Shown here piece by piece: positions 41,937-56,601 of a stretch of 64,000 bases of DNA. Made by a program: the position numbers and the translations under genes. A model generated the notes under the pieces. It was not told the origin of the DNA. It did not search any database and worked only from the letters and a program-made list of their open reading frames with translations. Every line of letters starts with the position of its first letter. The first letter of the stretch is position 1. The stretch is from a phage, in NCBI GenBank assembly GCA_018027755.1, contig GCA_018027755.1_4098.1. The stretch is one strand, 5' to 3'.

Positions 41937-42521
41937 ATGCGTAATTATACTAAATTCATCCGTACACTGTCAGAAATGGAAACCAACAAAGAGATCCTTT
42001 CAGCTTGTCGGTTAGCTGGCCTGGAGATCATCGGTGCTGGTTCTTCCCGTATAGTATTCGCTTTAAATGATCGGTTAGTGATTAAGGTCGCGAATTGTGA
42101 TGCGGGTGTCGAACAAAATGAAACTGAATGTAAGGTATGGAATTTTTTAGACTATGACCGCCCTCAGTTGAAACAGTACTTTGCAAAGGTGCATATGCAT
42201 TTATGCGATCCTGATAATATGTTTATCGTTATGGATCGGTTGAGTACTGCAAGCAAAGGCAGTGTGAAGCACGTTAACGCGTGCAATGAATTAAAGTACA
42301 ATATTAAACGTAATGCAATCGAACGCCAGCACCGCTTTGCTGATGCACTACAACACGTTGATGATACATTATCAACACTAACGATAAGAGATATCAGAAA
42401 ACAGAATATCGGCCAGGATCGTAATGGCCTTATTAAAGTACTTGATTACGGTTTAACCCGCAATATCTGGAATCAGTACTATAAAAAGCGTGATGTGGCA
42501 GCAAGTAAGGTAACACGATAA
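41937..42521 (+). CDS. protein-kinase-like protein (194 aa)
   Basis: Track ORF trimmed to ATG 41937 after AAGGAG; IIGAGSSRIVF (Gly loop), VIKV, IRDIRKQN, KVLDYG resemble kinase motifs. Confidence 0.45.
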   Translation: MRNYTKFIRTLSEMETNKEILSACRLAGLEIIGAGSSRIVFALNDRLVIKVANCDAGVEQNETECKVWNFLDYDRPQLKQYFAKVHMHLCDPDNMFIVMDRLSTASKGSVKHVNACNELKYNIKRNAIERQHRFADALQHVDDTLSTLTIRDIRKQNIGQDRNGLIKVLDYGLTRNIWNQYYKKRDVAASKVTR

Positions 42522-42528
42522 AAAAGAT

Positions 42529-42570
42529 TAAAAAAGGGATTGACTCCGGTCAGTCCCTTTGCTATTATAT
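42529..42570 (+). promoter_or_regulatory. composite element: A-run + hairpin overlapping TTGACT-N17-TATTAT promoter
   Basis: -35 42540-42545, -10 42563-42568. Confidence 0.5.
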
Positions 42571-42592
42571 ATCCATTGAGAGATAACTCACT

Positions 42593-42617
42593 GACCCATA
42601 GGGTGCGGAAGTGTATC
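42593..42617 (+). repeat. motif-1 copy
   Basis: GACCCATAGGGTGCGGAAGTGTATC. Confidence 0.5.
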
Positions 42618-42742
42618 TATTATATAAGTATTCAGTACTGAAAACTATTTTTAAAAAAGTACTTGCATTGTACTTAGAATCAAGTATAATGTTTTATATC
42701 GAGAGGGGGAAATGGTTCTCCCTGGCAATAAGGAATAAAATC

Positions 42743-42964
42743 ATGACTACAATGACTTGCATTTACGCTTCCAATCGTCTGAATGATGCGGCCTTTAATG
42801 TTGATTCAGAATATCAATGTTATCGGGATGAAAATAAAAAAGTTTTTGTAGTTGATAATAATGGTTTCCATATTGAATTACAATCCGGCTTCACTGGTGT
42901 TGATGGTAAATCAGTATGGGGCGTACAGGATGATAAAGGTACATATCATTTTAAACGTAATTAA
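42743..42964 (+). CDS. hypothetical protein (73 aa)
   Basis: Track ORF 42611..42964 trimmed to ATG after promoter, leader hairpin and AAGGAA RBS. Confidence 0.55.
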   Translation: MTTMTCIYASNRLNDAAFNVDSEYQCYRDENKKVFVVDNNGFHIELQSGFTGVDGKSVWGVQDDKGTYHFKRN

Positions 42965-43048
42965 GTATTTGACAAAGTATCTTAGTACTGTATAATAGTT
43001 TACATCAAGGGGAGAATAGTTCTCCCCGATACTAAAAGGAATAAAATC

Positions 43049-43456
43049 ATGACTACTACCAATCAAGCTCGGAACATCACCAACGATAAAAATCATGCTG
43101 CAATGGTCGCTGGTTACATTGAAGCTATGCAATTCAGTACTGTACACAATGAGAACGGCGAATACCTGGAAGATTATGAATTATCAGAGCAAGCCCATCA
43201 AGCGGCAGTGATTGCATGTTCACGTTTCCTTGCTGTACATGGTGAAGATATGGAAACAGTACAAAAACACCATAATCCTGATTATACTTATAGTCATGCA
43301 GGTCATGATCTCTTTCTTACTCGCGAAGGTCACGGCACTGGTTTTTGGGATCGTGATATCGGTCACTATGATGATATATTCACTAAGTACTGCGAAGAAA
43401 TCAACGTTTGCGATCCCTATGTAGGCGATGATAATCTAATCTATATGGGCGAATAA
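43049..43456 (+). CDS. hypothetical protein (135 aa), His-rich
   Basis: ORF track; leader hairpin + AAGGAA RBS. Confidence 0.6.
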   Translation: MTTTNQARNITNDKNHAAMVAGYIEAMQFSTVHNENGEYLEDYELSEQAHQAAVIACSRFLAVHGEDMETVQKHHNPDYTYSHAGHDLFLTREGHGTGFWDRDIGHYDDIFTKYCEEINVCDPYVGDDNLIYMGE

Positions 43457-43544
43457 AAGTATTTGACAAAGTATATCAGTACTGTATAATAGTTTACATC
43501 AAGGGGAGAATAGTTCTCCCCCACCAATAAAAGGAAACAAAATT

Positions 43545-43817
43545 ATGTCCAGCTACTCCGCTACTATGATCATTAAAGATATGAACGGTAATCCTACTTC
43601 TGCTGGTGGATCATTTGGAAACATTAATTTAGATGGGCGGTTATCCATGCAATCAGCCATCGATACAGCGAAAGAAGTTTTTAAGAATGAATGTACTGTA
43701 AGCAAGCTGGATTATATGGGATTCGCTATCGAGAAAACTAATCGTTTTGTGAACTACAAAAATCCACTGATGATTGATACTAACCTGAAAGCTAACGAAG
43801 TGGAATACTTATTATGA
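43545..43817 (+). CDS. hypothetical protein (90 aa)
   Basis: ORF track. Confidence 0.6.
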   Translation: MSSYSATMIIKDMNGNPTSAGGSFGNINLDGRLSMQSAIDTAKEVFKNECTVSKLDYMGFAIEKTNRFVNYKNPLMIDTNLKANEVEYLL

Positions 43818-44005
43818 CAGTTGAAGAAGTTAAAAAAGTACTGGCAGTACTACGCTATCATAATCATTGCAAGGTGAAGAATGATCCTGATTATCTCGAT
43901 TCATCCCTGGAAGAGGATACACTACAAGCAATAAGCCATATGCAAAAAATGCTTAAGCGTATGACCGAAAAGAATAGACCGGACTATATCGGAAATAAAA
44001 TTTAA
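43814..44005 (+). CDS. hypothetical protein (63 aa)
   Basis: ORF track; ATGA overlap. Confidence 0.55.
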   Translation: MTVEEVKKVLAVLRYHNHCKVKNDPDYLDSSLEEDTLQAISHMQKMLKRMTEKNRPDYIGNKI

Positions 44006-44091
44006 AAAGTACTTGCATTGTAGTTAGATTAACGTATAATGTTTTATATCGAGAGGGGAAATGGTTTCCCCTCAAGTCCAGGAGATACACC

Positions 44092-44355
44092 ATGAACACT
44101 ATCGAAATCACTATCAATGCACACGTATACGACAACGTAGTACTGCAAACTACTATGACCGCTAATGATACCAGTACTTTGCGGAATACTGTTATTAGTG
44201 CCGTATGTGCTGCAATCGGTGATGTTGCCCTGGAAAATGCAGAACATATCAACAACGGTTTCACTATGTGCAAACGTGATAACGCAAAACATATCATCGT
44301 GGAAGGTTACGGCGGTGTAGAATTTAATGTTTATATGAAAAAAGTATTTGCATAA
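44092..44355 (+). CDS. hypothetical protein (87 aa)
   Basis: ORF track. Confidence 0.6.
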   Translation: MNTIEITINAHVYDNVVLQTTMTANDTSTLRNTVISAVCAAIGDVALENAEHINNGFTMCKRDNAKHIIVEGYGGVEFNVYMKKVFA

Positions 44356-44422
44356 TAACTAAAACAAAGTATAATGTTTTGCATAGGGGGAGATATCCTC
44401 CCCCACTAAAAGGAGTAATAAA

Positions 44423-44647
44423 ATGGCTAACTTTGATGAACTGATGCGGGAAGTAGCTACCCTGGCAGAAGAGAAGAAATCATTCGATTCTATCTATAAC
44501 ACCTCTTACCGTGATTCAGTACTGGCATGTACTCAGGATCAAAAAGATGAACTAATCGCCACATATCATGAAGCATGGAAGTACTACCGCCAATGGGAGA
44601 AAGAAGAAAGCGAGTCTACCATCAACGGCATCAATAATCTAATCTAA
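44423..44647 (+). CDS. hypothetical protein (74 aa)
   Basis: ORF track. Confidence 0.6.
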   Translation: MANFDELMREVATLAEEKKSFDSIYNTSYRDSVLACTQDQKDELIATYHEAWKYYRQWEKEESESTINGINNLI

Positions 44648-44723
44648 AAGTTTTATTTCAGTACTATTGACATAGCTTGATAGTACTGATGTAATAACTT
44701 TACTAACTACAAGGGGAAACATA

Positions 44724-44981
44724 ATGGAACAGTTCACACAATATCGGGTAAATCCTCAAGCTATGGCCTACGTAGAAGACCATAAAACGTTACCAGTACT
44801 GCAACCAGTTAAAGGCCATATCTATCGTGCAATGTCGTGGAGTACGGCCCAGGATGGCTATAAAACCGTAGCTGTCGGTATGTACTGCGGTAATGGTGAA
44901 TGGTTTGATCCAAATAATCCGGTCGCCGTTGACAGTACTGAAAAAATGAAATGGGCCGACTACATCGAAGATATTTCATAA
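44724..44981 (+). CDS. hypothetical protein (85 aa)
   Basis: ORF track. Confidence 0.6.
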   Translation: MEQFTQYRVNPQAMAYVEDHKTLPVLQPVKGHIYRAMSWSTAQDGYKTVAVGMYCGNGEWFDPNNPVAVDSTEKMKWADYIEDIS

Positions 44982-45071
44982 AAACTATTTGACAGTACTA
45001 ACCAGTAATGTATAATGTTTTACATAGAGCGGGGGAATAGTTCTCCCGCCAATAGTTTGGAGTAAAACATT

Positions 45072-45285: not shown

Positions 45286-45327
45286 AAAAAAGGGATTGAC
45301 TCCGGTCAGTCCCTTTGCTATTATATA
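45286..45327 (+). promoter_or_regulatory. composite element: A-run + hairpin overlapping TTGACT-N17-TATTAT promoter
   Basis: -35 45297-45302, -10 45320-45325. Confidence 0.5.
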
Positions 45328-46411: not shown

Positions 46412-46621
46412 ATGTTCTATACAGTATACAGCGTTCTAGGCACTATTGCAGGCGTACATGATAACGTCAATGATGCTATGCGTACAGTACTGCAACAGGT
46501 TCCACTAAAGCCTAAGACCATTAAGCAGATGACAGCACGACTAACCAGGGCGACCGATGGCGTGGAAGTATGGCAGGACTACGGGGATACACAGATAATC
46601 GTAAGCGTAACGAAGGATTAA
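46412..46621 (+). CDS. hypothetical protein (69 aa)
   Basis: ORF track; AGGAGGG RBS. Confidence 0.6.
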   Translation: MFYTVYSVLGTIAGVHDNVNDAMRTVLQQVPLKPKTIKQMTARLTRATDGVEVWQDYGDTQIIVSVTKD

Positions 46622-46871
46622 TGCGTAAAGGGATCTAGTACTGATTCAGAAAAAAGTCAAGGCGTTTTTAAAATTATGCGTTAAAAAAATGCATAGGTAA
46701 TCCCTTGACTTTTTTGAAATAAAAGGGATTGGACTATGGCAAAATGCGTAGGGGGCTAAAGGGCGGGTAACCTTAGCGACTTCGATAAAGGGGTATTACG
46801 AATAAAATGTTATTGATTTTTTATACGAATCGTATATTATAGGATTGATATTATTTTTTAATGGAGTCCCT

Positions 46872-47069
46872 ATGCGTATTTTAACTAAAGAACAGCACCA
46901 CGAAAGACTTATCAATAACATGGCTATGATAATGTATAAGTCCCATGACCGTGGTATTGCCTATAAGCGTGAATTAATTATGGCACTATTCATTGGAACT
47001 AACTTTCAGGAAAGGTATGTCAACGATTGGATTTGGTATTTAATTGAAGATATAACGAGTAAACTATGA
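46872..47069 (+). CDS. small protein, tandem family B (LGTNYQE motif)
   Basis: Track ORF trimmed to MRILTKEQ; FIGTNFQERYV motif. Confidence 0.6.
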   Translation: MRILTKEQHHERLINNMAMIMYKSHDRGIAYKRELIMALFIGTNFQERYVNDWIWYLIEDITSKL

Positions 47070-47266
47070 AAATGCGTATTTTAAATAAAGAAGAATATCA
47101 ATCACTGTTACGTAAAAACTTCACAAAGATTTATAATACAGACACACACGTAGAACGAATGGAGTTATACCTTTTGATTACTTTGGGAACTAACTATCAG
47201 GAAAGATGGGTGATTCAATATATGGATACATTGAAAAATAAAATATTGTCCACGAGGAAACAATGA
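47066..47266 (+). CDS. small protein, tandem family B
   Basis: ORF track; ATGA overlap; LGTNYQERWV. Confidence 0.65.
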   Translation: MKMRILNKEEYQSLLRKNFTKIYNTDTHVERMELYLLITLGTNYQERWVIQYMDTLKNKILSTRKQ

Positions 47267-47472
47267 AAACTATAACACGAACCCAATCATACGGTCTTAT
47301 CTTGAAATACATGGACTTAATGGTGGATATCAGCAAAGACCTTCCTAAAACTGAAATTGAAGTTGCAAGAGCAGAGATCCGCATGTTGGCTGTACTGAAC
47401 ACAAACCATCAGGAAGATTATGTTGAAGAATGGATTCGATTTTTAATTCAAGATATAAAGAGTAAATTATGA
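47263..47472 (+). CDS. small protein, tandem family B
   Basis: ORF track; LNTNHQEDYV. Confidence 0.6.
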   Translation: MKTITRTQSYGLILKYMDLMVDISKDLPKTEIEVARAEIRMLAVLNTNHQEDYVEEWIRFLIQDIKSKL

Positions 47473-47684
47473 TTATTATAGAAAACTCATATCAATATAC
47501 TGAACGCATCGCTGCCAGACAACTTGAAATCCTCATAATATACGAAGAGACTTCTGATTTAAACTTAGCCGAGGTATTGGAAAATGATATACTATTGGGT
47601 GCATTCTTAGGAACAGACTATCAGAAGTATTATGAGGAAAAGTATTTGTCATCTCTTGAGAAATATATCAGGAGCAAATTATGA
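47469..47684 (+). CDS. small protein, tandem family B
   Basis: ORF track; LGTDYQKYY. Confidence 0.6.
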   Translation: MIIIENSYQYTERIAARQLEILIIYEETSDLNLAEVLENDILLGAFLGTDYQKYYEEKYLSSLEKYIRSKL

Positions 47685-47893
47685 TTTTTTTAACACCAGA
47701 AGAATATAAGAAACGTTTCAATTCCGCACAGGGTGAAATCTTACTTATATACCTTTCAAATGCAGACCTTAACTTATCAAGGGTATTAGAAAAAGATTTA
47801 CTTATGGGTGCATTCCTTGATACAGACTTTCAGGTGTATTATGTAGGGGAATACTTAATTGCACTTCAGAATTATATCAGGAGTAAACTATGA
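47681..47893 (+). CDS. small protein, tandem family B
   Basis: ORF track; close paralog of 47469..47684. Confidence 0.65.
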   Translation: MIFLTPEEYKKRFNSAQGEILLIYLSNADLNLSRVLEKDLLMGAFLDTDFQVYYVGEYLIALQNYIRSKL

Positions 47894-48117
47894 AACATTT
47901 AAGTAACTCCGAGAAGAATAAAATTATCGTTGCTGCAATAAACAAATATTTTACACTTCCTCACAAAGAAGGTTTATGTGTAAGGGAACACAGGATAAAC
48001 ACCACCGATAAACGCATGATGGCTGTACTGGGGACGAACTTCCAGGAAGAGTATGTTATTGCACACATAGTTGCACTCAAGAATTACATTATGGACAAAT
48101 GTAATGAACATCATTAA
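47890..48117 (+). CDS. small protein, tandem family B
   Basis: ORF track; LGTNFQEEYV. Confidence 0.65.
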   Translation: MKHLSNSEKNKIIVAAINKYFTLPHKEGLCVREHRINTTDKRMMAVLGTNFQEEYVIAHIVALKNYIMDKCNEHH

Positions 48118-48328
48118 TAACTTTGAATACGAGGCCCGTGCTAAGAGTGCCAGAAAAAAAGAGAACACCATTTACTTCACTATGATGTACTTACAATGGA
48201 CTGAAATTGAAGAAAAGGTTGCTGAAGTATGGATGTTGGAATTCATGGGGACGCAGTATCAGAATAGGTTTGCGGGTGAGTATATCAATGTTCTTATGAA
48301 ACAAATAGAAAGAAAGGAAAAGAACTAA
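48104..48328 (+). CDS. small protein, tandem family B
   Basis: Track ORF trimmed to MNIINNFEYE; MGTQYQNRF. Confidence 0.55.
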   Translation: MNIINNFEYEARAKSARKKENTIYFTMMYLQWTEIEEKVAEVWMLEFMGTQYQNRFAGEYINVLMKQIERKEKN

Positions 48329-48486
48329 TGGTTTTCATTAACATATCTGACCAACTCGATACTAAACTAGAAGTCGAGCAGAGTGAGGGAGGGATGTTGT
48401 ACTTTCTTGGAACTTCTCATCAGAATTTTTATATCCATGAACACATAGTTGCACTCACAAATCTAATAAGGGATAAATGTAAATGA
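48328..48486 (+). CDS. small protein, tandem family B (52 aa)
   Basis: Below track cutoff; FLGTSHQNFY motif. Confidence 0.5.
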   Translation: MVFINISDQLDTKLEVEQSEGGMLYFLGTSHQNFYIHEHIVALTNLIRDKCK

Positions 48487-48740
48487 AACACTTGACGAAC
48501 GATGAATATTCACTTAGAATTCGAAAGCTCACCCCAGAAGCAAGAGTAATCTACGATGACGATGCACTTTCATGGAACGAGATGAAAGTTAAAGTTCATG
48601 AGCTATGGTTGCTGTACTTTGTGGGAACCCAATATCAAGAGAAATATTGTACCGATTATCTTGAACAACTAATGGATCTTATACAGATAAAACTAAATGA
48701 ACGAATTGTGGAAAAATATGAAAACTTTATCAAGCACTGA
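48483..48740 (+). CDS. small protein, tandem family B
   Basis: ORF track; VGTQYQEKY. Confidence 0.65.
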   Translation: MKHLTNDEYSLRIRKLTPEARVIYDDDALSWNEMKVKVHELWLLYFVGTQYQEKYCTDYLEQLMDLIQIKLNERIVEKYENFIKH

Positions 48741-48969
48741 GTATCAAACTGCCCTCTTCTCCCTTCTAAACACCCTCCGCACGAACAATAAACTTTATAA
48801 TTCCCGTGAAGCTGATATCGTCAACGCTGATGTATATCTTAATAAATTCATAGGGACTAACTATCAAGAACTGTTCACTCTACGATATATCGCTGCATTG
48901 AGAAACGAAATATCAGATAAAACCCGTCAAGCCAGAAGAGAATGGAATAAACAATGCGACACAGACTAA
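48718..48969 (+). CDS. small protein, tandem family B
   Basis: Track ORF trimmed to MKTLSSTEY; IGTNYQELF. Confidence 0.6.
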   Translation: MKTLSSTEYQTALFSLLNTLRTNNKLYNSREADIVNADVYLNKFIGTNYQELFTLRYIAALRNEISDKTRQARREWNKQCDTD

Positions 48970-49205
48970 ATCACAAAATGTATTGTAAACTATTACAGAC
49001 ACTGGCACAGAAACACTATGACACGGTATCTGGAATATTACCCTATGATATCATGCGTTTACTTCACTGTGAGGCCGAGATGCTTGTACTGATGACTGGC
49101 ACAGATAAAAACGCAATTGCCAAATCTATAGATATGTTCATCGATGCACACTGCCAACACATTAGAACCGAGATATGGAGACGTGAGAATGAAAATCCTG
49201 ACTGA
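48954..49205 (+). CDS. small protein, tandem family B (divergent)
   Basis: ORF track; MTGTDKNAIAK in motif position. Confidence 0.5.
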   Translation: MRHRLNHKMYCKLLQTLAQKHYDTVSGILPYDIMRLLHCEAEMLVLMTGTDKNAIAKSIDMFIDAHCQHIRTEIWRRENENPD

Positions 49206-49404
49206 GCATGAGTATTACAATAGGTTAAGAACTATACAAGGAAAAGTCTCGTGGACTTTTTTAGATAATTCTATTGCAGAAGCGGACCGATGTGTTATAA
49301 TAGCTGAAATGAAGCTATTACTCTTCATTGGGACAAACTATCAAAGTATCTACATAGACGCATGGTTAAGCAGCTTACGTCTGAAGTCGGTGAGTTTAAA
49401 ATGA
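49189..49404 (+). CDS. small protein, tandem family B
   Basis: Track ORF trimmed to MKILTEHEY; IGTNYQSIY. Confidence 0.6.
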   Translation: MKILTEHEYYNRLRTIQGKVSWTFLDNSIAEADRCVIIAEMKLLLFIGTNYQSIYIDAWLSSLRLKSVSLK

Positions 49405-49619
49405 GAAAATTAATAGGTTTCGAATATGTTAAGCTTCTACAAACCTGTGGAATCAGAAGGAGAATGATTCAAAAGGATAAAAAAATTGCCGAAGAACGAA
49501 AGTATATAATGATAACTGAACTTTATGTCTTAACACTCTTAGGCACAAACTATCAACACACTTATGTAGACCTATGGATCGATGCACTACAGAAAGAGGT
49601 TAAAAGTAAATGCAAATGA
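49401..49619 (+). CDS. small protein, tandem family B
   Basis: Track ORF trimmed to MRKLIGFEY; LGTNYQHTYV. Confidence 0.6.
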   Translation: MRKLIGFEYVKLLQTCGIRRRMIQKDKKIAEERKYIMITELYVLTLLGTNYQHTYVDLWIDALQKEVKSKCK

Positions 49620-49828
49620 TTAATTTAAGTAAAGATGAATATTATGAACGTCTTGCAAAAACTTATCCAGCACGTAACGCCGTTTATAATAGTAACATTA
49701 TTGAACGCTCAAAGAAGTTGATTGTAGTAAATGAGATTAAGATGCTTTCAGTCTTAGGAACAAACTATCAAGAGAATGCTGTACTGTTGTTAATTGATGC
49801 CCTCCAGAGAGAGATACAAAGTAAATGA
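49610..49828 (+). CDS. small protein, tandem family B
   Basis: ORF track; MQMINLSKDEY; LGTNYQENAV. Confidence 0.65.
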   Translation: MQMINLSKDEYYERLAKTYPARNAVYNSNIIERSKKLIVVNEIKMLSVLGTNYQENAVLLLIDALQREIQSK

Positions 49829-50073
49829 TTCATTTATCTTACCATGATTATCAAAAACGTTTAAATGCATCAAGGGATATAAGGATTCAAATCTTCAATA
49901 ACAAAAAATTGAAACCTGACACCAGAAGAATCAAAATGATAGAAGCAGAGTTATGCAACTTCCTGGGGACGAACTATCAGGCAGGTAAGGTAAAAAACTA
50001 TCTTAGAGAACTAATGATTTGTATCGAAAATAAATGTGAGGTTGATGAACATGCAAATGATCAATTTAAGTAA
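49825..50073 (+). CDS. small protein, tandem family B
   Basis: ORF track; LGTNYQAGKV. Confidence 0.6.
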   Translation: MIHLSYHDYQKRLNASRDIRIQIFNNKKLKPDTRRIKMIEAELCNFLGTNYQAGKVKNYLRELMICIENKCEVDEHANDQFK

Positions 50074-50314
50074 AGATGAATATACCGAGCGTATGACAAA
50101 AATTACGCACAAACGTAATACAATCTATCACAACCCAGAAATCCAACACAGTAAGAAAATGATTATGATGCGTGAGTTAAAGATGGGTGTATTCTTAGGA
50201 ACAAACTATCAAGATACAGAAGTAAATCGCTTAATCGCGGAGTTACTACTGGAAATCAGAGGTAAGCTGTACTTTCATCAAATGACCCAACCACTGAGGT
50301 GTACTGATCGATGA
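50051..50314 (+). CDS. small protein, tandem family B
   Basis: Track ORF trimmed to MQMINLSKDEYTER; paralog of 49610..49828. Confidence 0.6.
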   Translation: MQMINLSKDEYTERMTKITHKRNTIYHNPEIQHSKKMIMMRELKMGVFLGTNYQDTEVNRLIAELLLEIRGKLYFHQMTQPLRCTDR

Positions 50315-50562
50315 ATGCGATGAATATTGTGAATAACATCAGATTAGCAGAAAGATTTGATAGAATTGGGGAAGCACTGAGAAGATACGATAAAGAATAT
50401 GGTCATTTGAGCTTTTCTATAGAAAAGAGATATGAACTTGAAGCAGAGTTTAAAATGCAGAGTCTCTTAGGCACACAGTATCAAAACCAATATATTCAAA
50501 CTTGGATTGATTGTTTAATCCAGACAATTTACGTAAGAAACATTAAATGCAAAATGAAATGA
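50311..50562 (+). CDS. small protein, tandem family B
   Basis: ORF track; LGTQYQNQYI. Confidence 0.6.
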   Translation: MNAMNIVNNIRLAERFDRIGEALRRYDKEYGHLSFSIEKRYELEAEFKMQSLLGTQYQNQYIQTWIDCLIQTIYVRNIKCKMK

Positions 50563-50807
50563 TATACTTAACCTATAATGAATACGTCGAGAGATTAGTT
50601 CGTGCCAAGAGATATACCAATAAACGTCCAATTGACCTAAACCAAACCCCAGCAGAAAGGAGTGCAGAAGTATTATTCCAATCACTACCATATCTTCTGG
50701 GAACTGATAGACAAGAGGAATATGTTGCACGTATGATTAGATATCTTAAAATCACTATTAAGGAAAAAGTAAATGCAAATGCAAATGAAATACTTAACAG
50801 ACGATGA
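50547..50807 (+). CDS. small protein, tandem family B
   Basis: ORF track; LGTDRQEEYV; paralog of next gene. Confidence 0.6.
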   Translation: MQNEMIYLTYNEYVERLVRAKRYTNKRPIDLNQTPAERSAEVLFQSLPYLLGTDRQEEYVARMIRYLKITIKEKVNANANEILNRR

Positions 50808-51030
50808 GTTAAAAGAACGACTAATTAAATCCAGAAAACTTACAAATCAACTTCCAAACGACACAAACAAGTCACATGCCGAAAGGAGTGCAGAAGTTTT
50901 ATACATTCAACTCATGTACTTTCTTGGAACTGACAGACAAGAGTATTACATTGAAAGTATGCTTCGATATCTTAAATTCTCTATAAAGGAAAAGATACAT
51001 GCTCAAGAATTTAAAAATCCTAACAGTTAA
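50773..51030 (+). CDS. small protein, tandem family B
   Basis: ORF track; LGTDRQEYYI. Confidence 0.6.
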   Translation: MQMQMKYLTDDELKERLIKSRKLTNQLPNDTNKSHAERSAEVLYIQLMYFLGTDRQEYYIESMLRYLKFSIKEKIHAQEFKNPNS

Positions 51031-51256
51031 TGAATATCATACGATTGTAATGAAAACTAATAGTGAAATTTCTAAAAAATCAAACCCAAAGTACATACTG
51101 GAACACACATTCGAAGAACGCCAATTAGCTCTAGTTGAAGCAAAACTTCTTGCACTCCTAGGAACAAACTATCAGGAAGAATACATCAGAAAACTAATAT
51201 ACCTTTTAACTAAACACATCAGGAAAAGAAAAAAGCATGAAGCACTTGACAGATGA
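50999..51256 (+). CDS. small protein, tandem family B
   Basis: ORF track; LGTNYQEEYI. Confidence 0.65.
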   Translation: MLKNLKILTVNEYHTIVMKTNSEISKKSNPKYILEHTFEERQLALVEAKLLALLGTNYQEEYIRKLIYLLTKHIRKRKKHEALDR

Positions 51257-51467
51257 TGAACATGGGCTTATAGTAATGGATGTAATCAACATCGAATACA
51301 AAAAGTTGATACGCTACCGTTGTTATGAAGATAAGCAACTCGTTCTAGCAGAACAGAAGTTGTTTCGACTCTTAAACACAAACTTCCAAGCACAATACGA
51401 AGAATCGTATATGTACCTTTTGGCGAGGAAAGCAAAAAGAGATTATGAAAATTTTAAGCAAAGGTGA
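51237..51467 (+). CDS. small protein, tandem family B
   Basis: ORF track; LNTNFQAQY. Confidence 0.6.
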   Translation: MKHLTDDEHGLIVMDVINIEYKKLIRYRCYEDKQLVLAEQKLFRLLNTNFQAQYEESYMYLLARKAKRDYENFKQR

Positions 51468-51660
51468 TTCAGTAATATTACTTATAGAGAGTTCAAGTAA
51501 ATTCTTAAACATAACACTGTCTGATATAGATGAAGATGACAAAGAAGTACTGAGAGCAGATTTAAGAGTACTGTTACATATCGGAACAAACCTACAAGAA
51601 GAATATGTAGAGTGCTACATCAATGAACTTAAAGAATTAGTACTGAGAAAATGCAAATGA
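51445..51660 (+). CDS. small protein, tandem family B
   Basis: ORF track; IGTNLQEEYV. Confidence 0.6.
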   Translation: MKILSKGDSVILLIESSSKFLNITLSDIDEDDKEVLRADLRVLLHIGTNLQEEYVECYINELKELVLRKCK

Positions 51661-51878
51661 AAATCATTACCGATGCAGAATACCTAACAATCATAAATGG
51701 ACTGTTTTTGAAGCTCTTCGTCATTAACACATCAGATATACCAGATATGGATAAAATTATTAAGAGAAATGAAGTCTATGTTCTAGCTACCCTTGGAACG
51801 AACTATCAAGAACACGACATTAAAGATTATATTAATACACTTAAACGAGCGATTGAACTAAAATGCCAAAACCACTAG
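51651..51878 (+). CDS. small protein, tandem family B
   Basis: ORF track; LGTNYQEHDI. Confidence 0.65.
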   Translation: MQMKIITDAEYLTIINGLFLKLFVINTSDIPDMDKIIKRNEVYVLATLGTNYQEHDIKDYINTLKRAIELKCQNH

Positions 51879-52078
51879 GAACAGCAGAATACATTGAACT
51901 AATGGGATTACACTTCTCATCCTTTCAGAAACTTATGCGAGAATCAAAGAATGATTTAGAATATACCATCAGAGGTTCCGATTTAAGAATGCTTCTCACC
52001 CTAGACACAGATTCCCAAGAGCGATTTGTCAATGAGCATATTAGAGCACTTTTAATGGAAATTCAAAGTAAACTATGA
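51863..52078 (+). CDS. small protein, tandem family B
   Basis: ORF track; LDTDSQERFV. Confidence 0.55.
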   Translation: MPKPLGTAEYIELMGLHFSSFQKLMRESKNDLEYTIRGSDLRMLLTLDTDSQERFVNEHIRALLMEIQSKL

Positions 52079-52290
52079 AGGTAATATCAAATCAAGAGTA
52101 CTTGGCACTATTCAGGAAGAATAATCACAAATATATGGCACTTGATTCAAGAACTGATATAAGTGAACTTGAAAAAAATCTTTTGCGTTCAGATATGATA
52201 GTACTGACACTCTTAGGAACACAGCATCAAGAGAGAACTGTTAATTCACACATAGAAATACTTAAGAAGCTTATACAGGAAAAGTTATGA
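52075..52290 (+). CDS. small protein, tandem family B
   Basis: ORF track; LGTQHQERTV. Confidence 0.6.
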   Translation: MKVISNQEYLALFRKNNHKYMALDSRTDISELEKNLLRSDMIVLTLLGTQHQERTVNSHIEILKKLIQEKL

Positions 52291-52508
52291 GAATCATAAC
52301 ACAACAAGATATTCTTAAGTTCACAAGGGTTCATGCATCTGAATTTGATGCTATATTATCAAAAAGTTACAACAACCCTTATACACAAGATGTACACTAC
52401 AATGAATTATGGGTGTATATACTTTTAGGTACAGATCATCAAGAGCAAGCAGTACAGAAGTATTTGTTAGCTTTACGTGATGCTACTGCTAATGGAGTAC
52501 GTGTTTAA
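52287..52508 (+). CDS. small protein, tandem family B
   Basis: ORF track; LGTDHQEQAV. Confidence 0.6.
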   Translation: MRIITQQDILKFTRVHASEFDAILSKSYNNPYTQDVHYNELWVYILLGTDHQEQAVQKYLLALRDATANGVRV

Positions 52509-52509
52509 T

Positions 52510-52752
52510 ATGAAAGTACTGACAGAACTAGAAATGTATCATAGATTTAATAAGTACTATCATTTACTTAAGCCTATACAGAGGATTAAATGTCCATTTG
52601 AAGAGAAACAGGTTTTAATCTATGAGCACAAGTTCTTTGTATCATTAGGTACAGATCAACAAGAGTACTATTTGACGTTGTACTTGATTACATTAATAGA
52701 TTTAATTTACTATAAAACCAAACAAGCTAATAAAGAGAAATATGAAAACTAA
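52510..52752 (+). CDS. small protein, tandem family B
   Basis: Track ORF trimmed to MKVLTELEMY; LGTDQQEYYL. Confidence 0.6.
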   Translation: MKVLTELEMYHRFNKYYHLLKPIQRIKCPFEEKQVLIYEHKFFVSLGTDQQEYYLTLYLITLIDLIYYKTKQANKEKYEN

Positions 52753-53086
52753 TATACAACTCAAGGTATATAAATCATTTGAACATACATATATCAAAAG
52801 TAGTCTATGTAGAGATGTAATGGATTACAAGGGTAAGCCATTCACAATTACTTATGATTCTTATGTTGATGATTTATATATATCATTTGTTAATTACGAA
52901 AATAAAATATACAAGCACGTTGATATTAAAGATTTAAGTACTTTATCTGAAGAGGAATACTTTCAGGAATCATTAGTATGGGATTTAGAGTTTCCTATGC
53001 CATTAGTACATAAGATGATAGTACTAATGAAAGAATCTAAACAGGAGCCTAATGGTGATTATGAAGAACACACAGTTGAGTATTAA
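52742..53086 (+). CDS. tandem family C protein (acidic-aromatic-FQ-x-SL motif)
   Basis: ORF track; SEEEYFQESLVWD. Confidence 0.6.
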   Translation: MKTNIQLKVYKSFEHTYIKSSLCRDVMDYKGKPFTITYDSYVDDLYISFVNYENKIYKHVDIKDLSTLSEEEYFQESLVWDLEFPMPLVHKMIVLMKESKQEPNGDYEEHTVEY

Positions 53087-53456
53087 AAGTACTGATAATA
53101 TTAAGAGTTATACAAGCTCAAGTACTGTGACAATCGAAGTGAATTCTATTAATGCTGGTAATGCAGTAGATAAGTTCTTTATTGCTCAAGGGTACAGGAA
53201 AGATATTCATCAATATTGTTCAGTATATGGGGAGTACAATAGTACTGAAGATATAATTTATTGGTCAACACATCAAGATTATCTAACTAAAATTGGAGTC
53301 CCAGATGTTAGTACTTTATCTGAAGAAGAATACTTTCAGTACAGCTTAATATGTGATGTACCTATACCTTTAGGGTTAATCAAGGGTATACAGGAAGAGG
53401 TTCATAAGCTTAAATCCATGAGTAAAGGTACTTTCATTAGAACAGTGCAATACTAG
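53052..53456 (+). CDS. tandem family C protein
   Basis: ORF track; SEEEYFQYSLICD; paralog of previous. Confidence 0.6.
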   Translation: MVIMKNTQLSIKSTDNIKSYTSSSTVTIEVNSINAGNAVDKFFIAQGYRKDIHQYCSVYGEYNSTEDIIYWSTHQDYLTKIGVPDVSTLSEEEYFQYSLICDVPIPLGLIKGIQEEVHKLKSMSKGTFIRTVQY

Positions 53457-53457
53457 C

Positions 53458-53486
53458 TTGACAGTACTTTTCATTACTGATATAGT
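53458..53486 (+). promoter_or_regulatory. sigma70-like promoter (TTGACA-N17-TATAGT)
   Basis: -35 53458-53463, -10 53481-53486, before ATG 53516. Confidence 0.5.
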
Positions 53487-53515
53487 ACACTAACGTTAAT
53501 CATAGGGTAAAAATT

Positions 53516-53761
53516 ATGTTAAATTTTTTAAATTTCCTTATCGTTTTGTGTATTGTTCTTGGGATTGCACCATTTGTATTGTATTTCATGGATTCAGATG
53601 AAATGCAGAAGATGAATTGCACAAGGACAGGACAGAGTAGAGAAGAGACGATTCTTATGCCTGTTACGGTTATTGTTAACAACATGCCCATTACAAACAT
53701 GGTCCCTACCCTAACGACAACGTACCAGTACTCTTGTGCTGACGGAGAGAGGTGGAGATGA
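53516..53761 (+). CDS. small membrane-anchored protein (81 aa)
   Basis: ORF track; hydrophobic N-terminal helix; own promoter. Confidence 0.55.
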   Translation: MLNFLNFLIVLCIVLGIAPFVLYFMDSDEMQKMNCTRTGQSREETILMPVTVIVNNMPITNMVPTLTTTYQYSCADGERWR

Positions 53762-54078
53762 AATTTAATATAGCAAAAACATCGAGTATATGTATTTTTG
53801 GTTATGCAGAAGAGTTAGGTGATATTGACATTCTTTTGTACAAAAAGGATGGTGTTATGCATTTCAAGTACCAGGATGAAGAGGCAGACAATTATCTTTT
53901 ACCTAATTTAGTACAAATGCAGGAAGAGGAATTATTCCAGTACAGCTTAGTATACGACATTGATATTTGCACGATGCCAGTACTAATTAGTATTCAAAAA
54001 GTGATGCTCGATATGTATGATAAGCTAATACAAGGTACATCAGGGAGAATCATTGAAATCGATATACAAGACAATTAA
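53752..54078 (+). CDS. tandem family C protein
   Basis: ORF track; EEELFQYSLVYD. Confidence 0.6.
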   Translation: MEMKFNIAKTSSICIFGYAEELGDIDILLYKKDGVMHFKYQDEEADNYLLPNLVQMQEEELFQYSLVYDIDICTMPVLISIQKVMLDMYDKLIQGTSGRIIEIDIQDN

Positions 54079-54271
54079 TCAAGAATGGAAGACCCAAAAG
54101 TACAGGGAATTCAACAGGAATTTTACAAAAGATGCATTGAATTTAAAAACAACAGAGTTTGATATGTTTATTTTTCTTGGAACACGTTCACAAGAACAAT
54201 TTGTTCATTATTATATAAATTCGTTGCGAACGGAGATAGTATGCAAAACACAGGGTATTATAAAAAGGTAA
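54053..54271 (+). CDS. small protein, family B-like (embedded in family C array)
   Basis: ORF track; FLGTRSQEQFV motif. Confidence 0.5.
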   Translation: MKSIYKTINQEWKTQKYREFNRNFTKDALNLKTTEFDMFIFLGTRSQEQFVHYYINSLRTEIVCKTQGIIKR

Positions 54272-54507
54272 ACCAATATTTGTACGCTACAAAGTACAGG
54301 GATTTTTGTTTAAAGGGTGGTGATGAAGATTTTTCTTTGCGATTATCAGAATTTAATCTGTTATTTTATCTTGGTACAAAAGAACAAGAAGAAATGGCAC
54401 AGAAATTTATCAAGCACCTTTTACAAAAAATTAATATGCAAATTTTGATGCTTAAGTTACAGAATGAGATAAATGAATATGAATCCAGAAATAGTTCAGG
54501 ATCTTAA
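54241..54507 (+). CDS. small protein, family B-like
   Basis: ORF track; YLGTKEQEEMA motif. Confidence 0.5.
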   Translation: MQNTGYYKKVNQYLYATKYRDFCLKGGDEDFSLRLSEFNLLFYLGTKEQEEMAQKFIKHLLQKINMQILMLKLQNEINEYESRNSSGS

Positions 54508-55013: not shown

Positions 55014-55217
55014 ATGCAAAAGATTAATACGATAACATTAAATGCATTACAGGATTCATTATTAGATAGTATTAAGATGTATTACAATATACATTTGAAG
55101 GGTGGTATTGATAATTACGATTATTATTTGAGTTTAATTACATTTGAGCACCTTTCAGTACAGGACAGGATTATACATCCTACAAATCCTAGGTATCCAT
55201 CGATAGGTAAATTATGA
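55014..55217 (+). CDS. hypothetical protein (67 aa)
   Basis: ORF track. Confidence 0.45.
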   Translation: MQKINTITLNALQDSLLDSIKMYYNIHLKGGIDNYDYYLSLITFEHLSVQDRIIHPTNPRYPSIGKL

Positions 55218-55762
55218 ATGAGATAGATTTATTAGCACACAAGATAAGTACAATAATGCTTATCCTCAATAACAACCATCCTATATCGCAGATAGATGGA
55301 ATCCTGAGTCAGAGGACAGGTGGTAGTTTATATTTGTCCATAAACGCAGATATCGCAAGGAAATACATTGATATTGATGTTGAAATCGAATATGATACAA
55401 CGGGGATTGTTGATGTAGGAGCATTAATCAGTTCAAATCCAGTATCAGCATCCCCATTGACCAAAGATGTTAGTACAGGATTCGAAGGATATTTGTGGTA
55501 CAATACCAATGATGATTATTTTATATATCAGCATTCCAATACAAATTATGATGAAGACAAATTTCAGTTCATAGACCCTTATGATGAAGCTGAAGTATTT
55601 CAAAAATCATTAATCACAAAACCGCATGAGATGATGTATCTAATGTTATTCAGTACAATGCATTTGAATCCATTAATTAAAGGTTTAAAATTTTATATTC
55701 AATTAAATTTAGTCCATGTAGTTTATGATTTATTAATGCAAGGATATAGTTATGAAGTATAA
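55214..55762 (+). CDS. tandem family C protein
   Basis: ORF track; DEAEVFQKSLITKP. Confidence 0.55.
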   Translation: MNEIDLLAHKISTIMLILNNNHPISQIDGILSQRTGGSLYLSINADIARKYIDIDVEIEYDTTGIVDVGALISSNPVSASPLTKDVSTGFEGYLWYNTNDDYFIYQHSNTNYDEDKFQFIDPYDEAEVFQKSLITKPHEMMYLMLFSTMHLNPLIKGLKFYIQLNLVHVVYDLLMQGYSYEV

Positions 55763-56063
55763 AATGATGTATACCCCAGATATGATTTATGTTGAATTAG
55801 AAGATGATGACGATGGGTGGAATTTGATTTATTCAAGAAGTTCAGGTTGGTACATGGCACATTTAAATGATTCGATAGTTACAGATTATTTTGTAGATTT
55901 CAATACATTATCCGATGAAGAATTGTTCCAACAGCAATTAGTGATTGACACGGGTGGTTATGATGTCTTATTATTAAAAAAGATACAAAAAGCTGTTATT
56001 GATTTTAAGCCCATGATATGGCAAAGGAAATATTATGACCTCGAAGTACCATACCAGCAATGA
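55752..56063 (+). CDS. tandem family C protein
   Basis: ORF track; SDEELFQQQLVID. Confidence 0.6.
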   Translation: MKYKMMYTPDMIYVELEDDDDGWNLIYSRSSGWYMAHLNDSIVTDYFVDFNTLSDEELFQQQLVIDTGGYDVLLLKKIQKAVIDFKPMIWQRKYYDLEVPYQQ

Positions 56064-56601
56064 AATTCAGTACACCTACGCTAATGCAATCCTTATGGGA
56101 CAAAAGTTAGCTTGTATTGTTGCAGCCTTATATAATGCCCAGAAAGATTACAAGCGTCATATCCACAAATGTATTGGTATTATTCCATCGAAGTACAATA
56201 CATATATTGCGTGCACGAGTCATTTTGATAAACGATTCAATACACCTGATACCCCAAATGCCAGTAGTGTTATTGGTCTTTTGGATTTCGCACCTGGTGC
56301 TGTTATTGGAAAGAATGATTTAGAGTACACATGGTATAATAAAAATGCCCCGTTAGTAATGGGAAAATATGATACAGAAACGAATAAAACAATAGAGTAC
56401 AATACATATAAATCAGAGGAAGAATTTTTCCAAGGTTCATTGCTTGTACCAGTGCGTTTGTTGTTTTATAATGTCCTTATTAGTACAGTACACAATAGTC
56501 CATTACACAAGAATCACAAAATTAATTTCAATTTTTGTGCTTATGCGATTGATGGTGTGTATGAGTGTTTAATGGAGGTATTGAGTTATGAAGCTGAATA
56601 A
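56035..56601 (+). CDS. tandem family C protein
   Basis: ORF track; SEEEFFQGSLLV. Confidence 0.6.
   Translation: MTSKYHTSNEIQYTYANAILMGQKLACIVAALYNAQKDYKRHIHKCIGIIPSKYNTYIACTSHFDKRFNTPDTPNASSVIGLLDFAPGAVIGKNDLEYTWYNKNAPLVMGKYDTETNKTIEYNTYKSEEEFFQGSLLVPVRLLFYNVLISTVHNSPLHKNHKINFNFCAYAIDGVYECLMEVLSYEAE

What the first reader, a model, noticed from the sequence alone, without database searches (positions are those of the whole stretch)
46872..54507. About 28 tandem small paralogs (52-85 aa) with an LGTNYQE-type motif (family B)
Abutting or overlapping plus-strand genes, often ATGA-coupled, each with a variable N-terminal half and a conserved central hydrophobic-L/I-G-T-N/D-Y/F-Q-E-x-Y-V motif followed by an amphipathic tail. 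Two more copies sit inside the family C array (54053..54507). Such expansion of a tiny protein is characteristic of fast-evolving host-interaction or anti-defence repertoires.
Basis: seen in the sequence. Interest (0 to 1): 0.75.

Follow-up and report, generated by a model that had tools for sequence, protein, structure and literature searches.

The report
Tandem array of tiny phage paralogs
A giant E. coli virus carries 29 back-to-back genes for diverged copies of one tiny three-helix protein. The copies are kept intact by selection and swapped between related viruses, which suggests a repertoire for handling different hosts, but the function is untested.

Summary
The window comes from an Asteriusvirus jumbo coliphage (PBECO4/121Q/G17 group). 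It holds 29 plus-strand genes of one family (52-88 aa): 27 contiguous at 46872-52752 and 2 at 54053-54507. There is no intergenic gap over 2 nt, and 13 of 26 junctions are ATGA overlaps.

Conservation is at the protein level, with all synonymous codons used at conserved sites and HMM hits in one frame only, so this is not a nucleotide-repeat artefact. The family equals PHROG 4148 (unknown function). It matches nothing in Pfam, NCBIfam, PADLOC or PDB.

AlphaFold2 gives a very confident strand-helix-helix-strand-helix three-helix bundle (pLDDT 97.5). The GT[ND][YF]QE motif sits at the strand and N-cap of helix 3. Conserved positions form the buried helix faces, and the exposed surface and charge (pI 4.4-9.7) vary.

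Orthologs are under purifying but relaxed selection (dN/dS ~0.36 against ~0.1 in flanks). Related phages show gene-by-gene mosaic allele replacement and 17-32 copies. No member appears in the phAPEC6 virion proteome.

The best reading is a diversified repertoire of early, non-structural binder proteins for host takeover or anti-defence, and this is inferred only. The 121Q array was noted in one sentence in 2017, so its existence is not new.

The parts
46650..46716 (+). Terminator-like long hairpin ending in a T-run, downstream of gene 46412..46621. It separates the array from the upstream genes.
   Evidence: RNA fold of 46620-46812 gives -47.7 kcal/mol, z = -3.1. Sequence read. Conserved in the closest relatives, diverged in Turkey5.
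46813..46840 (+). Sigma-70-type promoter-like site (TTGATT-16-TATTAT here; TTGACT-16-TAAAAT or TATTAT in relatives), about 30 nt before the first gene.
   Evidence: Promoter scan. The TTGAYT hexamer is present in 7 of 8 aligned sequences, including Turkey5. Function is inferred, not shown.
46872..47069 (+). B01, 65 aa
   Evidence: HMM E 3.3e-18. GGAG Shine-Dalgarno. AF2 model pLDDT 97.5.
47072..47266 (+). B02, 64 aa
   Evidence: HMM E 4.7e-19; sequence.
47263..47472 (+). B03, 69 aa
   Evidence: HMM E 2.1e-21; ATGA junction.
47469..47684 (+). B04, 71 aa
   Evidence: HMM E 4.5e-15; 53% identical to B05.
47681..47893 (+). B05, 70 aa
   Evidence: HMM E 1.6e-18.
47890..48117 (+). B06, 75 aa
   Evidence: HMM E 4e-21.
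48104..48328 (+). B07, 74 aa
   Evidence: HMM E 2.8e-20; the start matches the G17 annotation.
48328..48486 (+). B08, 52 aa, the shortest member; most of helix 1 is missing.
   Evidence: HMM E 3.5e-14; alignment.
48483..48740 (+). B09, 85 aa
   Evidence: HMM E 1.5e-26.
48718..48969 (+). B10, 83 aa
   Evidence: HMM E 4.5e-21.
48954..49205 (+). B11, 83 aa, a divergent member. It keeps G-T but lacks the Gln and has a 6-residue insertion.
   Evidence: HMM E 2e-11; orthologs 78-96% identical, dN/dS 0.23.
49189..49404 (+). B12, 71 aa
   Evidence: HMM E 1.3e-19.
49401..49619 (+). B13, 72 aa
   Evidence: HMM E 1.3e-21.
49616..49828 (+). B14, 70 aa
   Evidence: HMM E 8.8e-22.
49825..50073 (+). B15, 82 aa
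   Evidence: HMM E 3.8e-22.
50057..50314 (+). B16, 85 aa
   Evidence: HMM E 3e-25.
50311..50562 (+). B17, 83 aa. This position shows the sharpest allele replacement.
   Evidence: HMM E 2.3e-17; 100% nt identity to EC.P1 but 57-58% to PBECO4 and G17.
50559..50807 (+). B18, 82 aa
   Evidence: HMM E 4e-19.
50785..51030 (+). B19, 81 aa
   Evidence: HMM E 1.1e-23.
50999..51256 (+). B20, 85 aa
   Evidence: HMM E 1.6e-19.
51237..51467 (+). B21, 76 aa
   Evidence: HMM E 5.3e-14; an ortholog forms the second half of P0090, which AF2 models with the same fold at pLDDT 92-97.
51445..51660 (+). B22, 71 aa
   Evidence: HMM E 2.9e-20.
51657..51878 (+). B23, 73 aa
   Evidence: HMM E 5.1e-24.
51863..52078 (+). 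B24, 71 aa
   Evidence: HMM E 3.6e-17.
52075..52290 (+). B25, 71 aa
   Evidence: HMM E 3.9e-20.
52287..52508 (+). B26, 73 aa
   Evidence: HMM E 1.9e-17.
52510..52752 (+). B27, 80 aa, the last member of the contiguous run.
   Evidence: HMM E 9.3e-21.
54053..54271 (+). B28, 72 aa, an outlying member with a TTG start after a GGGAG Shine-Dalgarno. It lacks the N-terminal MKxLT motif.
   Evidence: HMM E 2.9e-15; start context. Not annotated in G17 but annotated in CRJP21.
54241..54507 (+). B29, 88 aa, an outlying member that lacks the N-terminal motif and has a longer C-terminal tail.
   Evidence: HMM E 3.4e-15.

Best explanation
Family B is a lineage-specific expansion of one small, soluble, non-virion protein found in Rak2-like enterobacterial jumbo phages. 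All 27 contiguous copies are probably transcribed as one unit from a sigma-70-type promoter at about 46813-46840 by host RNA polymerase, so early or middle in infection. They are translated by coupling across overlapping stop and start codons. Promoter use and timing are inferred.

Each copy folds as a strand-helix-helix-strand-helix three-helix bundle. The N-terminal MKxLT strand pairs with the L-G-T strand. The invariant Thr and near-invariant Gln of GT[ND][YF]QE cap the N-terminus of helix 3. The conserved hydrophobic positions form the core. The fold is predicted; the capping role is inferred. The motif is therefore mainly a fold signature, not an active site.

The solvent-exposed faces, the helix 1-helix 2 loop and the net charge differ from copy to copy. 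I propose that each paralog binds and blocks or redirects a different cellular target, such as a host housekeeping or defence protein or a competing phage's protein. The array would then act as a standing repertoire that widens the range of E. coli and Salmonella strains the phage can exploit.

The array grew by old local tandem duplications. It is now diversified mainly by homologous recombination that swaps whole-gene alleles between co-circulating phages. The conserved junction sequences may help this exchange, which is inferred.
For: Shown:
- There are 29 intact copies in one orientation with no pseudogene, and the genes are fully packed with ATGA overlaps.
- Conservation is at the protein level.
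- The AF2 model of B01 has pLDDT 97.5 and pTM 0.80. The same topology appears in a B21 ortholog at pLDDT 92-97.
- Column conservation has a 100-degree periodicity in all three helices (permutation p < 0.002). The conserved residues therefore lie on one face of each helix, read as the buried one, and the opposite face varies.
- pI ranges from 4.4 to 9.7, GRAVY is mostly negative and no transmembrane-length hydrophobic segment was apparent.
- Pooled dN/dS is 0.34-0.46 in orthologs against 0.07-0.16 in upstream flanks. It is 0.16 in the motif, 0.35-0.41 in the variable parts and 0.98 in the C-terminal tail.
- Identity is mosaic gene by gene. Against PBECO4 it runs nine genes at 100%, then 81, 91, 71, 73 and so on. 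B17 is 100% identical to EC.P1 but 57% to PBECO4.
- Turkey5 keeps 92-100% identical upstream flanks but has a different set of 21 members only 26-70% identical.
- Copy number is 28-32 in most well-assembled Asteriusvirus genomes examined, 17 in an uncultured relative at the same syntenic site and about 12 scattered in Klebsiella phage RaK2.
- Adjacent paralogs are more alike than random pairs (29.2% against 24.5%, p < 1e-4).
- The phAPEC6 orthologs (gp467c-gp489c, gp462c) are absent from the 62-protein virion proteome.
- Upstream there is a terminator-like hairpin and a conserved promoter-like site, and the preceding 10 kb carries more than 10 near-consensus sigma-70 promoters.
- These phages encode their own sigma factor, mentioned in PMC7247149, which I take to serve late genes.
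Confidence: 0.4

Rival explanations
1. Adaptor model. One end of the bundle is conserved: the start of helix 1 (E8, Y9, R12) next to G-T-N-Y-Q-E. This end would dock every paralog onto one common partner, such as a phage enzyme like the nearby kinase-like protein, a protease or RNA polymerase. The hypervariable opposite end (end of helix 1, loop, start of helix 2, with indels) would recruit different substrates.
For: Polar and aromatic conserved residues (E8, Y9, R12, E34, N44, Y45, Q46, E47) cluster near the strand bridge in sequence and topology. The motif has the lowest dN/dS, 0.16. The indels concentrate in the helix 1-helix 2 connection.
Against: The conserved helix positions lie on the same face as the core hydrophobics. 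T-x-x-Q at a helix start is a textbook capping arrangement (my knowledge), so a purely structural role explains the motif. I had no model coordinates, so I could not measure exposure. B28 and B29 lack the N-terminal motif yet are retained.
Confidence: 0.12
2. Nucleic-acid-binding or self-assembling family. The paralogs would be small transcription factors or nucleoid proteins, or subunits that co-assemble into a hetero-oligomeric intracellular structure. This is what was suggested for the roughly 35-copy zinc-ribbon expansion of Bacillus phage G.
For: L-G-T-x-x-Q between two helices superficially resembles a helix-turn-helix turn. Co-transcribed, translationally coupled paralogs would be made in similar amounts. 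Iyer et al. proposed transcription-factor or structural DNA-binding roles for the phage G expansion (PMC7824862).
Confidence: 0.15
3. Genome filler. The array would be a by-product of tandem duplication that filled a capsid enlarged by mutation (the ratchet idea of Hua et al. 2017), and the individual copies would have little or no function of their own.
For: Hua et al. read the 121Q array of more than 30 genes as tandem duplication contributing to genome expansion (PMC5646251). Adjacent copies are more similar to each other.
Against: All 29 copies are intact despite divergence to about 24% identity. Every ortholog set has dN/dS below 1, pooled about 0.36. Core positions and the motif are kept in each copy. 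Translational coupling is maintained. The family persists in at least two phage genera and in an uncultured relative. Neutral filler would have decayed.
Confidence: 0.08
4. Virion internal or ejected proteins, comparable to the variable internal proteins of T4-like phages. The conserved N-terminus would act as a capsid-targeting peptide.
For: There is a conserved N-terminal decapeptide (MKxLTxxEY) on otherwise variable small proteins. phAPEC6 capsids contain an inner body (PMC7247149).
Against: None of the phAPEC6 orthologs (gp462c, gp467c-gp489c) is among the 62 virion proteins found by mass spectrometry. In the model the N-terminus is part of the fold, paired with the L-G-T strand, not a free peptide. 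The array sits among sigma-70-promoter genes, not late structural genes.
Confidence: 0.03

Closest known systems
PHROG 4148, with sub-cluster PHROG 28039 (phage orthologous groups, function unknown)
   Same: This is the same family. Twenty-eight of 29 members match PHROG 4148, best E 6.8e-26, and 14 also match PHROG 28039.
   Different: The PHROG entry has no function, structure or description. The array organisation, fold prediction and evolutionary pattern are added here.
[quoted passage not shown] 2017, PMC5646251; repeated in the 2026 review PMC13282480)
   Same: Almost certainly the same locus. 121Q is an Asteriusvirus, BFVD fold hits are 121Q proteins, and G17 members are annotated as similar to PBI_121Q_337 and _338. 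No other array seen in this window reaches 30 copies.
   Different: The paper gives one sentence and uses the array only as evidence for genome growth by duplication. The genes are not 'very similar': mean identity is 24.5% and the maximum 53%. That the quoted array is family B is my inference, because the paper gives no gene numbers in the text I read.
The roughly 35-copy zinc-ribbon lineage-specific expansion in Bacillus phage G (Iyer et al. 2021, PMC7824862)
   Same: A jumbo phage carrying some 30 or more copies of one very small domain, function unknown, proposed to act on many targets.
   Different: It is a different fold (zinc ribbon against all-helical, no metal ligands), a different phage group and an unrelated sequence.
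Amplified or variable anti-defence and host-takeover loci of phages (for example, segmental amplification of anti-defence genes in T6, PMC13096335; hyperplastic early regions and variable internal-protein loci of T4-like phages, from my own knowledge)
   Same: Small non-structural early-region genes, variable between close relatives, with tandem duplication as a route to new capacity (abstract).
   Different: Those amplifications are recent, near-identical copies selected for dosage. Family B copies are ancient and individually conserved. No anti-defence activity has been shown for family B.
Multigene families of large eukaryotic DNA viruses (African swine fever virus MGF110/360, poxvirus gene 'accordions'; from my own knowledge)
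   Same: Tandem paralog families in variable genome regions of giant DNA viruses, tied to host range and immune evasion.
   Different: This is an analogy only. There is no sequence or structural relationship, and the host biology differs.

Membership tests
PHROG 4148 (uncharacterised phage protein family) | Significant match to the family profile HMM | tested here: met
   28 of 29 members match at E <= 0.01, best E 6.8e-26, covering profile positions 1-71 of 74 for B01.
Any characterised protein family (Pfam-A, NCBIfam, PADLOC, PDB sequences) | A profile or sequence match shared by several members at or near the curated threshold | tested here: not met
   Only scattered single-member hits at E >= 0.0015, each to a different family. 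The profile search against PDB gave one hit at E 1.6.
Helix-turn-helix DNA-binding proteins | Structural match of the three-helix core to known helix-turn-helix domains | tested here: not met
Helix-turn-helix DNA-binding proteins | Basic surface or positive charge shared by the members | tested here: not met
   Net charge runs from -6 to +7 and pI from 4.4 to 9.7 across members.
Phage anti-defence or host-takeover proteins (a functional class) | Small, non-virion, encoded in an early-type region, variable among close relatives | tested here: met
   Members are 52-88 aa. Orthologs are absent from the phAPEC6 virion proteome. Sigma-70-type promoters surround the array. Alleles are mosaic and copy number varies. 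These features are permissive, not diagnostic.
Phage anti-defence or host-takeover proteins (a functional class) | Demonstrated binding or inhibition of a host or defence component | not testable with these tools
   No experimental data were found in the searched literature.
Virion internal proteins (T4 IP-like) | Presence in purified virions | tested here: not met
   The phAPEC6 virion mass-spectrometry table lists 62 proteins. None is gp462c or gp467c-gp489c. Small proteins can escape detection.
Nucleotide tandem repeat translated by accident | Conservation equal in all frames or at the DNA level | tested here: not met
   HMM hits occur in a single frame and strand only. Position 3 identity is 33% against 46% at positions 1+2, and synonymous codons are used freely at invariant residues.

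The most novel reading that the evidence does not exclude
The array would be a phage-encoded 'binder library': one minimal three-helix scaffold diversified on its exposed faces into about 30 specificities. Whole-gene alleles would be exchanged between co-infecting phages by recombination at the conserved gene junctions. Each phage would then carry a different combinatorial set of inhibitors (or, in the adaptor variant, substrate-recruiting modules for one common effector) against host defence and housekeeping proteins. That would make it a viral analogue of a diversified immune-receptor repertoire, and a source of many new small protein inhibitors of E. coli targets.
Probability: 0.2. Interest if true: 0.8.

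Novelty: new member of a known kind. Interest (0 to 1): 0.5.

Why it matters
Asteriusvirus phages are being isolated repeatedly as broad-host-range therapeutic candidates (36 records matched), yet 83% of the predicted phAPEC6 proteins have no known function. This array alone makes up about 5% of the gene count.

If the paralogs are target-specific binders, they would give about 30 to 90 distinct small inhibitors of enterobacterial proteins. They would also offer a handle on what sets the host range of jumbo phages, and a natural example of surface diversification on a 65-residue scaffold.

If they prove dispensable, the array is still a well-defined case for studying how tandem duplication, purifying selection and recombination keep large paralog families in a virus.

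Tried and rejected
- Nucleotide-repeat artefact: rejected.
- Match to a characterised family in Pfam, NCBIfam, PADLOC or PDB sequences: none.
- Helix-turn-helix idea from the L-G-T-x-x-Q turn: rejected on fold and charge.
- T4-style capsid-targeting peptide or internal protein: rejected on the virion proteome and on the N-terminus being part of the fold.
- The search for related loci with the 29-sequence alignment failed because no stretch was conserved enough.
- tblastn with the HMM consensus found only 5 weak hits, so I used divergent representatives, cluster look-ups and HMM scans of fetched loci instead.
- Paralog-paralog packing, tested with the natural B20-B21 fusion P0090: inconclusive. 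All paralogs aligned to the second half, so the first half had no alignment and came out at low pLDDT, with pTM 0.52.
- Relationship of family B to the neighbouring small-protein families A and C: the sequences show no shared motif. No profile-profile comparison was run.
- Pooled regional dN/dS found no region above 1 except the C-terminal tail at about 1, so positive selection is not demonstrated.
- Literature searches found no functional study of any member.

Full report
**Source and context**

The region 46800-54600 matches 36 phage records. The best is Escherichia phage vB_EcoM_CRJP21 at 94.7% over 100% of the query. The others are G17, Sharanji, PBECO4, phAPEC6, UB, EC.P1 and Salmonella SD phages, which are jumbo myoviruses of about 350 kb; every record whose taxonomy I retrieved and that carries a genus is assigned to Asteriusvirus. 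Every gene under the match is annotated 'hypothetical protein'.

The window is rich in tandem paralog families:
- A minus-strand run of 13 proteins of about 390 aa at 5838-20874.
- A family of roughly 60-aa proteins at about 21-25 kb.
- Family B, the subject of this report.
- A further family with an LSEEEYFQ-type motif.

There are no tRNA genes and no Rfam matches in the window.

**Checking the observation**

ORF listing and translation show the run of small plus-strand genes with the L-G-T-N-Y-Q-E motif. I set start codons by Shine-Dalgarno context, the N-terminal consensus and the G17 annotation. This gives 27 contiguous genes at 46872-52752 and two more at 54053-54271 and 54241-54507.

An HMM scan of the six-frame translation of the whole window finds exactly these 29, all on the + strand and in one frame each, with E from 2e-11 to 1.5e-26. 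That HMM contains the window's own sequences. The independent check is PHROG 4148, which 28 of 29 members match, best E 6.8e-26.

Thirteen of 26 junctions are ATGA overlaps. Ten overlap by 14-32 nt, one by 1 nt, and two are separated by 1-2 nt. Summed coding length (6132 nt) exceeds the span (5881 nt).

**Not a nucleotide repeat**

Mean pairwise identity is 24.5% for amino acids (maximum 53%) and 42% for nucleotides. Identity at codon position 3 is 33% against 46% at positions 1+2. The invariant Thr is encoded by four codons, the Gly by four, the Gln by both, and each conserved Leu by five or six.

Two corrections apply. There are 29 members, one of which (B11) has a degenerate motif. The extreme N-terminus is conserved (M-K-x-L-T-x-x-E-Y-x-x-R-L), and the variable segment is the middle of the protein.

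**What the protein is**

- *Sequence searches.* No member matches a characterised family in Pfam, NCBIfam or PADLOC. There are only single-member chance-level hits, each to a different family. A profile search of all PDB sequences finds nothing.
- *Predicted fold.* AlphaFold2 with the 29 paralogs as alignment gives a very confident model of B01 (mean pLDDT 97.5, pTM 0.80). The order is a short strand (residues 2-3), helix 6-24, helix 29-39, a one-residue bridge at Thr43, then helix 46-64. A B21 ortholog, the second half of the natural fusion P0090, has the same topology at pLDDT 92-97.
- *Role of the motif.* L-G-T pairs with the N-terminal strand. Thr43 and Gln46 sit at the N-cap and N3 positions of helix 3. 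I read this as a capping box, from general knowledge of helix capping and not from a measurement.
- *Conserved and variable faces.* Column entropy shows a 100-degree periodicity in all three helices (permutation p = 0.0018 for helix 1, 0.0008 for helix 2, below 0.0002 for helix 3; the best angle is exactly 100 degrees). This is sequence-only support for helices with one conserved face, read as buried, and one variable face, read as exposed.
- *Physical properties.* pI ranges from 4.4 to 9.7, net charge from -6 to +7, and GRAVY is mostly negative. These look like soluble cytoplasmic proteins without a common charged surface.

**Distribution**

A profile search of 1.84 billion representative proteins finds only 89 clusters. 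All named relatives come from E. coli or Salmonella Asteriusvirus genomes, or from Klebsiella Alcyoneusvirus phages (RaK2, K64-1, KP13-7, RCIP0023, phiKp_21).

| Genome or contig | Members found | Arrangement |
|---|---|---|
| This window | 29 | 27 contiguous plus 2 |
| Seven Asteriusvirus relatives | 21-32 | same locus |
| CMSTMSU (marked UNVERIFIED) | 38 | likely inflated by split ORFs |
| Klebsiella phage RaK2, 49-kb stretch | about 12 | scattered in small groups; two carry an extra C-terminal domain |
| Uncultured 101-kb contig (ENA ERZ14189038) | 17 | 12 contiguous, at the same syntenic site after the homolog of gene 46412..46621; flanks 40-84% identical |

The family is therefore older than the genus and confined to Rak2-like enterobacterial jumbo phages, with its largest expansion in Asteriusvirus.

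**Evolution**

- *Origin by local duplication.* Adjacent paralogs are more alike than random pairs (29.2% against 24.5%, p < 1e-4). The closest pairs are neighbours: B04/B05, B18/B19 and B14/B16. This fits local tandem duplication. No pair exceeds 53% identity, so no duplication is recent.
- *Selection.* Between genomes, orthologs at 60% identity or more have pooled dN/dS of 0.34-0.46, with all individual genes between 0.11 and 0.88. The three to six upstream non-family genes give 0.07-0.16 in good assemblies. By region, dN/dS is 0.16 in G-T-N-Y-Q, 0.23 in the helix 2 core, 0.35-0.41 in the variable parts and 0.98 in the C-terminal tail. Every copy is thus under purifying selection but is 3-4 times less constrained than its neighbours.
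- *Mosaic alleles.* Per-gene nucleotide identity to PBECO4 runs 100% for nine genes, then 81, 91, 71, 73, 90, 88, 97, 57, 96, 100 and so on. B17 is 100% identical to EC.P1 but 57-58% to PBECO4 and G17. B12 and B13 are 100% identical to CRJP21 but about 70-78% to the other four genomes compared.
- *Repertoire replacement.* Turkey5 has upstream flanks 92-100% identical in protein but only 21 members, 26-70% identical to those here.
- *Interpretation and caveat.* This pattern points to recombinational exchange of old, divergent whole-gene alleles. Downstream non-family genes are also mosaic, so the behaviour is regional and not unique to family B.

**Expression context (inferred)**

Upstream of the array there is a long hairpin with a T-run at 46650-46716 (fold z = -3.1). 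Next comes a G-rich segment at 46725-46790, almost invariant even in Turkey5. After that is a TTGAYT-16-TA(A/T)(A/T)AT promoter-like site at 46813-46840 whose TTGAYT hexamer is present in 7 of 8 aligned sequences. A GGAG Shine-Dalgarno and the first ATG follow.

The preceding 10 kb has more than 10 near-consensus sigma-70 promoters, one per small gene, several sharing the sequence TTGACAAAGTATCTTAGTACTGTATAAT. These phages encode their own sigma factor (PMC7247149). I therefore infer host-polymerase, early or middle transcription of the array as one translationally coupled unit. No transcriptome was found.

The phAPEC6 orthologs (gp467c-gp489c, gp462c) are absent from the 62-protein virion proteome.

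**Mechanism**

The best-supported reading is a conserved minimal scaffold carrying about 30 different surfaces. It would be made early and not packaged. Each copy would be kept by selection, and alleles would be exchanged among phages. This amounts to a repertoire of small binder or inhibitor proteins for host takeover, anti-defence or inter-phage competition. I put this at about 0.4, because no partner or phenotype is known.

The rivals are:
- An adaptor with a common docking end (0.12).
- A nucleic-acid-binding or self-assembling family (0.15).
- Functionless filler from duplication (0.08, disfavoured by the selection data).
- Virion internal proteins (0.03, disfavoured by the proteome and the fold).

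**Comparison with what is known**

The family is PHROG 4148, with no function assigned. Hua et al. [quoted passage not shown] A 2026 review repeats this (PMC13282480). By copy number this must be family B, so the array's existence is already on record. The genes are far from 'very similar', though, and nothing more was said about them.

The nearest analogue in kind is the roughly 35-copy zinc-ribbon expansion of phage G (PMC7824862). Recent tandem amplification of anti-defence genes in T-even phages (PMC13096335) shows the route by which such arrays can start, but those copies are young and near-identical.

**Verdict**

This is a real, well-delimited and selected protein family with a confidently predicted small fold and a striking mosaic population structure. 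It is uncharacterised rather than unknown. The functional claim is reasonable but unproven. Interest is moderate at 0.5.

Noticed in passing
window 5838-20874, minus strand: A tandem array of 13 paralogs, 111-449 aa and mostly about 375-415 aa, with RCC1-like G-x-N-x-x-x-Q-x-G repeats. Their phAPEC6 counterparts appear to be the proteins annotated 'DNA condensation protein' (gp003-gp010, gp549, gp551), which were detected in virions. Pfam gave no hit for the one member I tested.
   Followed up: partly
window 20959-25121, plus strand: Another family of about 9-15 tiny proteins (60-77 aa). They have a conserved N-terminal M-x-K-E-F-Y and a C-terminal L-I-Y-R-Y-like end. They share no motif with family B.
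   Followed up: partly
window 52742-54078, 55752-56063, 61441-62671 (possibly also 55214-56601): 'Family C': proteins of 100-190 aa that share an L-S/D-E-E-E-L/Y-F-Q-x-S-L-V motif. They are interleaved with the last two family B genes and are also variable between related phages.
   Followed up: partly
window about 35595-45016, intergenic regions: More than 10 near-consensus sigma-70 promoters, one per small gene. Three are identical 28-mers (TTGACAAAGTATCTTAGTACTGTATAAT at 39849, 40119 and 42969). This looks like a dedicated early-promoter family.
   Followed up: partly
window 46725-46790: A G-rich non-coding segment (GGGATTGGACTATGG...GCGGGTAACCTTAGCGACTTCGA) between the terminator-like hairpin and the array promoter. 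It is nearly invariant in all eight genomes aligned, including Turkey5 where the surrounding sequence diverges. It occurs once in the window and has no Rfam match.
   Followed up: partly
window 41078-41332 and 41880-42521: A small protein with a ParE-like toxin domain (Pfam PF24732, 43 bits against a cut-off of 24.4). Next to it is a 213-aa protein with a weak, sub-threshold protein-kinase match, annotated as serine/threonine kinase in phage Turkey5. Both lie in the early-promoter block upstream of the array.
   Followed up: partly
window 45289-45324, 42540-42568, 35595-35623: A recurring composite element in which a G+C-rich hairpin (for example AAAGGGATTGACTCCGGTCAGTCCCTTT) overlaps a TTGACT-17-TATTAT promoter-like site.
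   Followed up: no
L006 (EC.P1) 10455-11264; L009 (RaK2) 20125-20532 and 23808-24158: Some relatives carry a family B domain fused to extra C-terminal domains. One is a 269-aa protein in EC.P1 and UB whose C-terminal part resembles RaK2 ORF380. Others are RaK2 ORFs of about 117-121 aa that share a second domain. A 154-aa B20-B21 fusion (P0090) also occurs on one metagenome contig.
   Followed up: partly
window 51246-51274: An 11-of-12 sigma-70 consensus match (TTGACA-17-TATAGT) inside the array at the start of B21, which could be an internal promoter. The array as a whole is not enriched for promoter-like matches.
   Followed up: no
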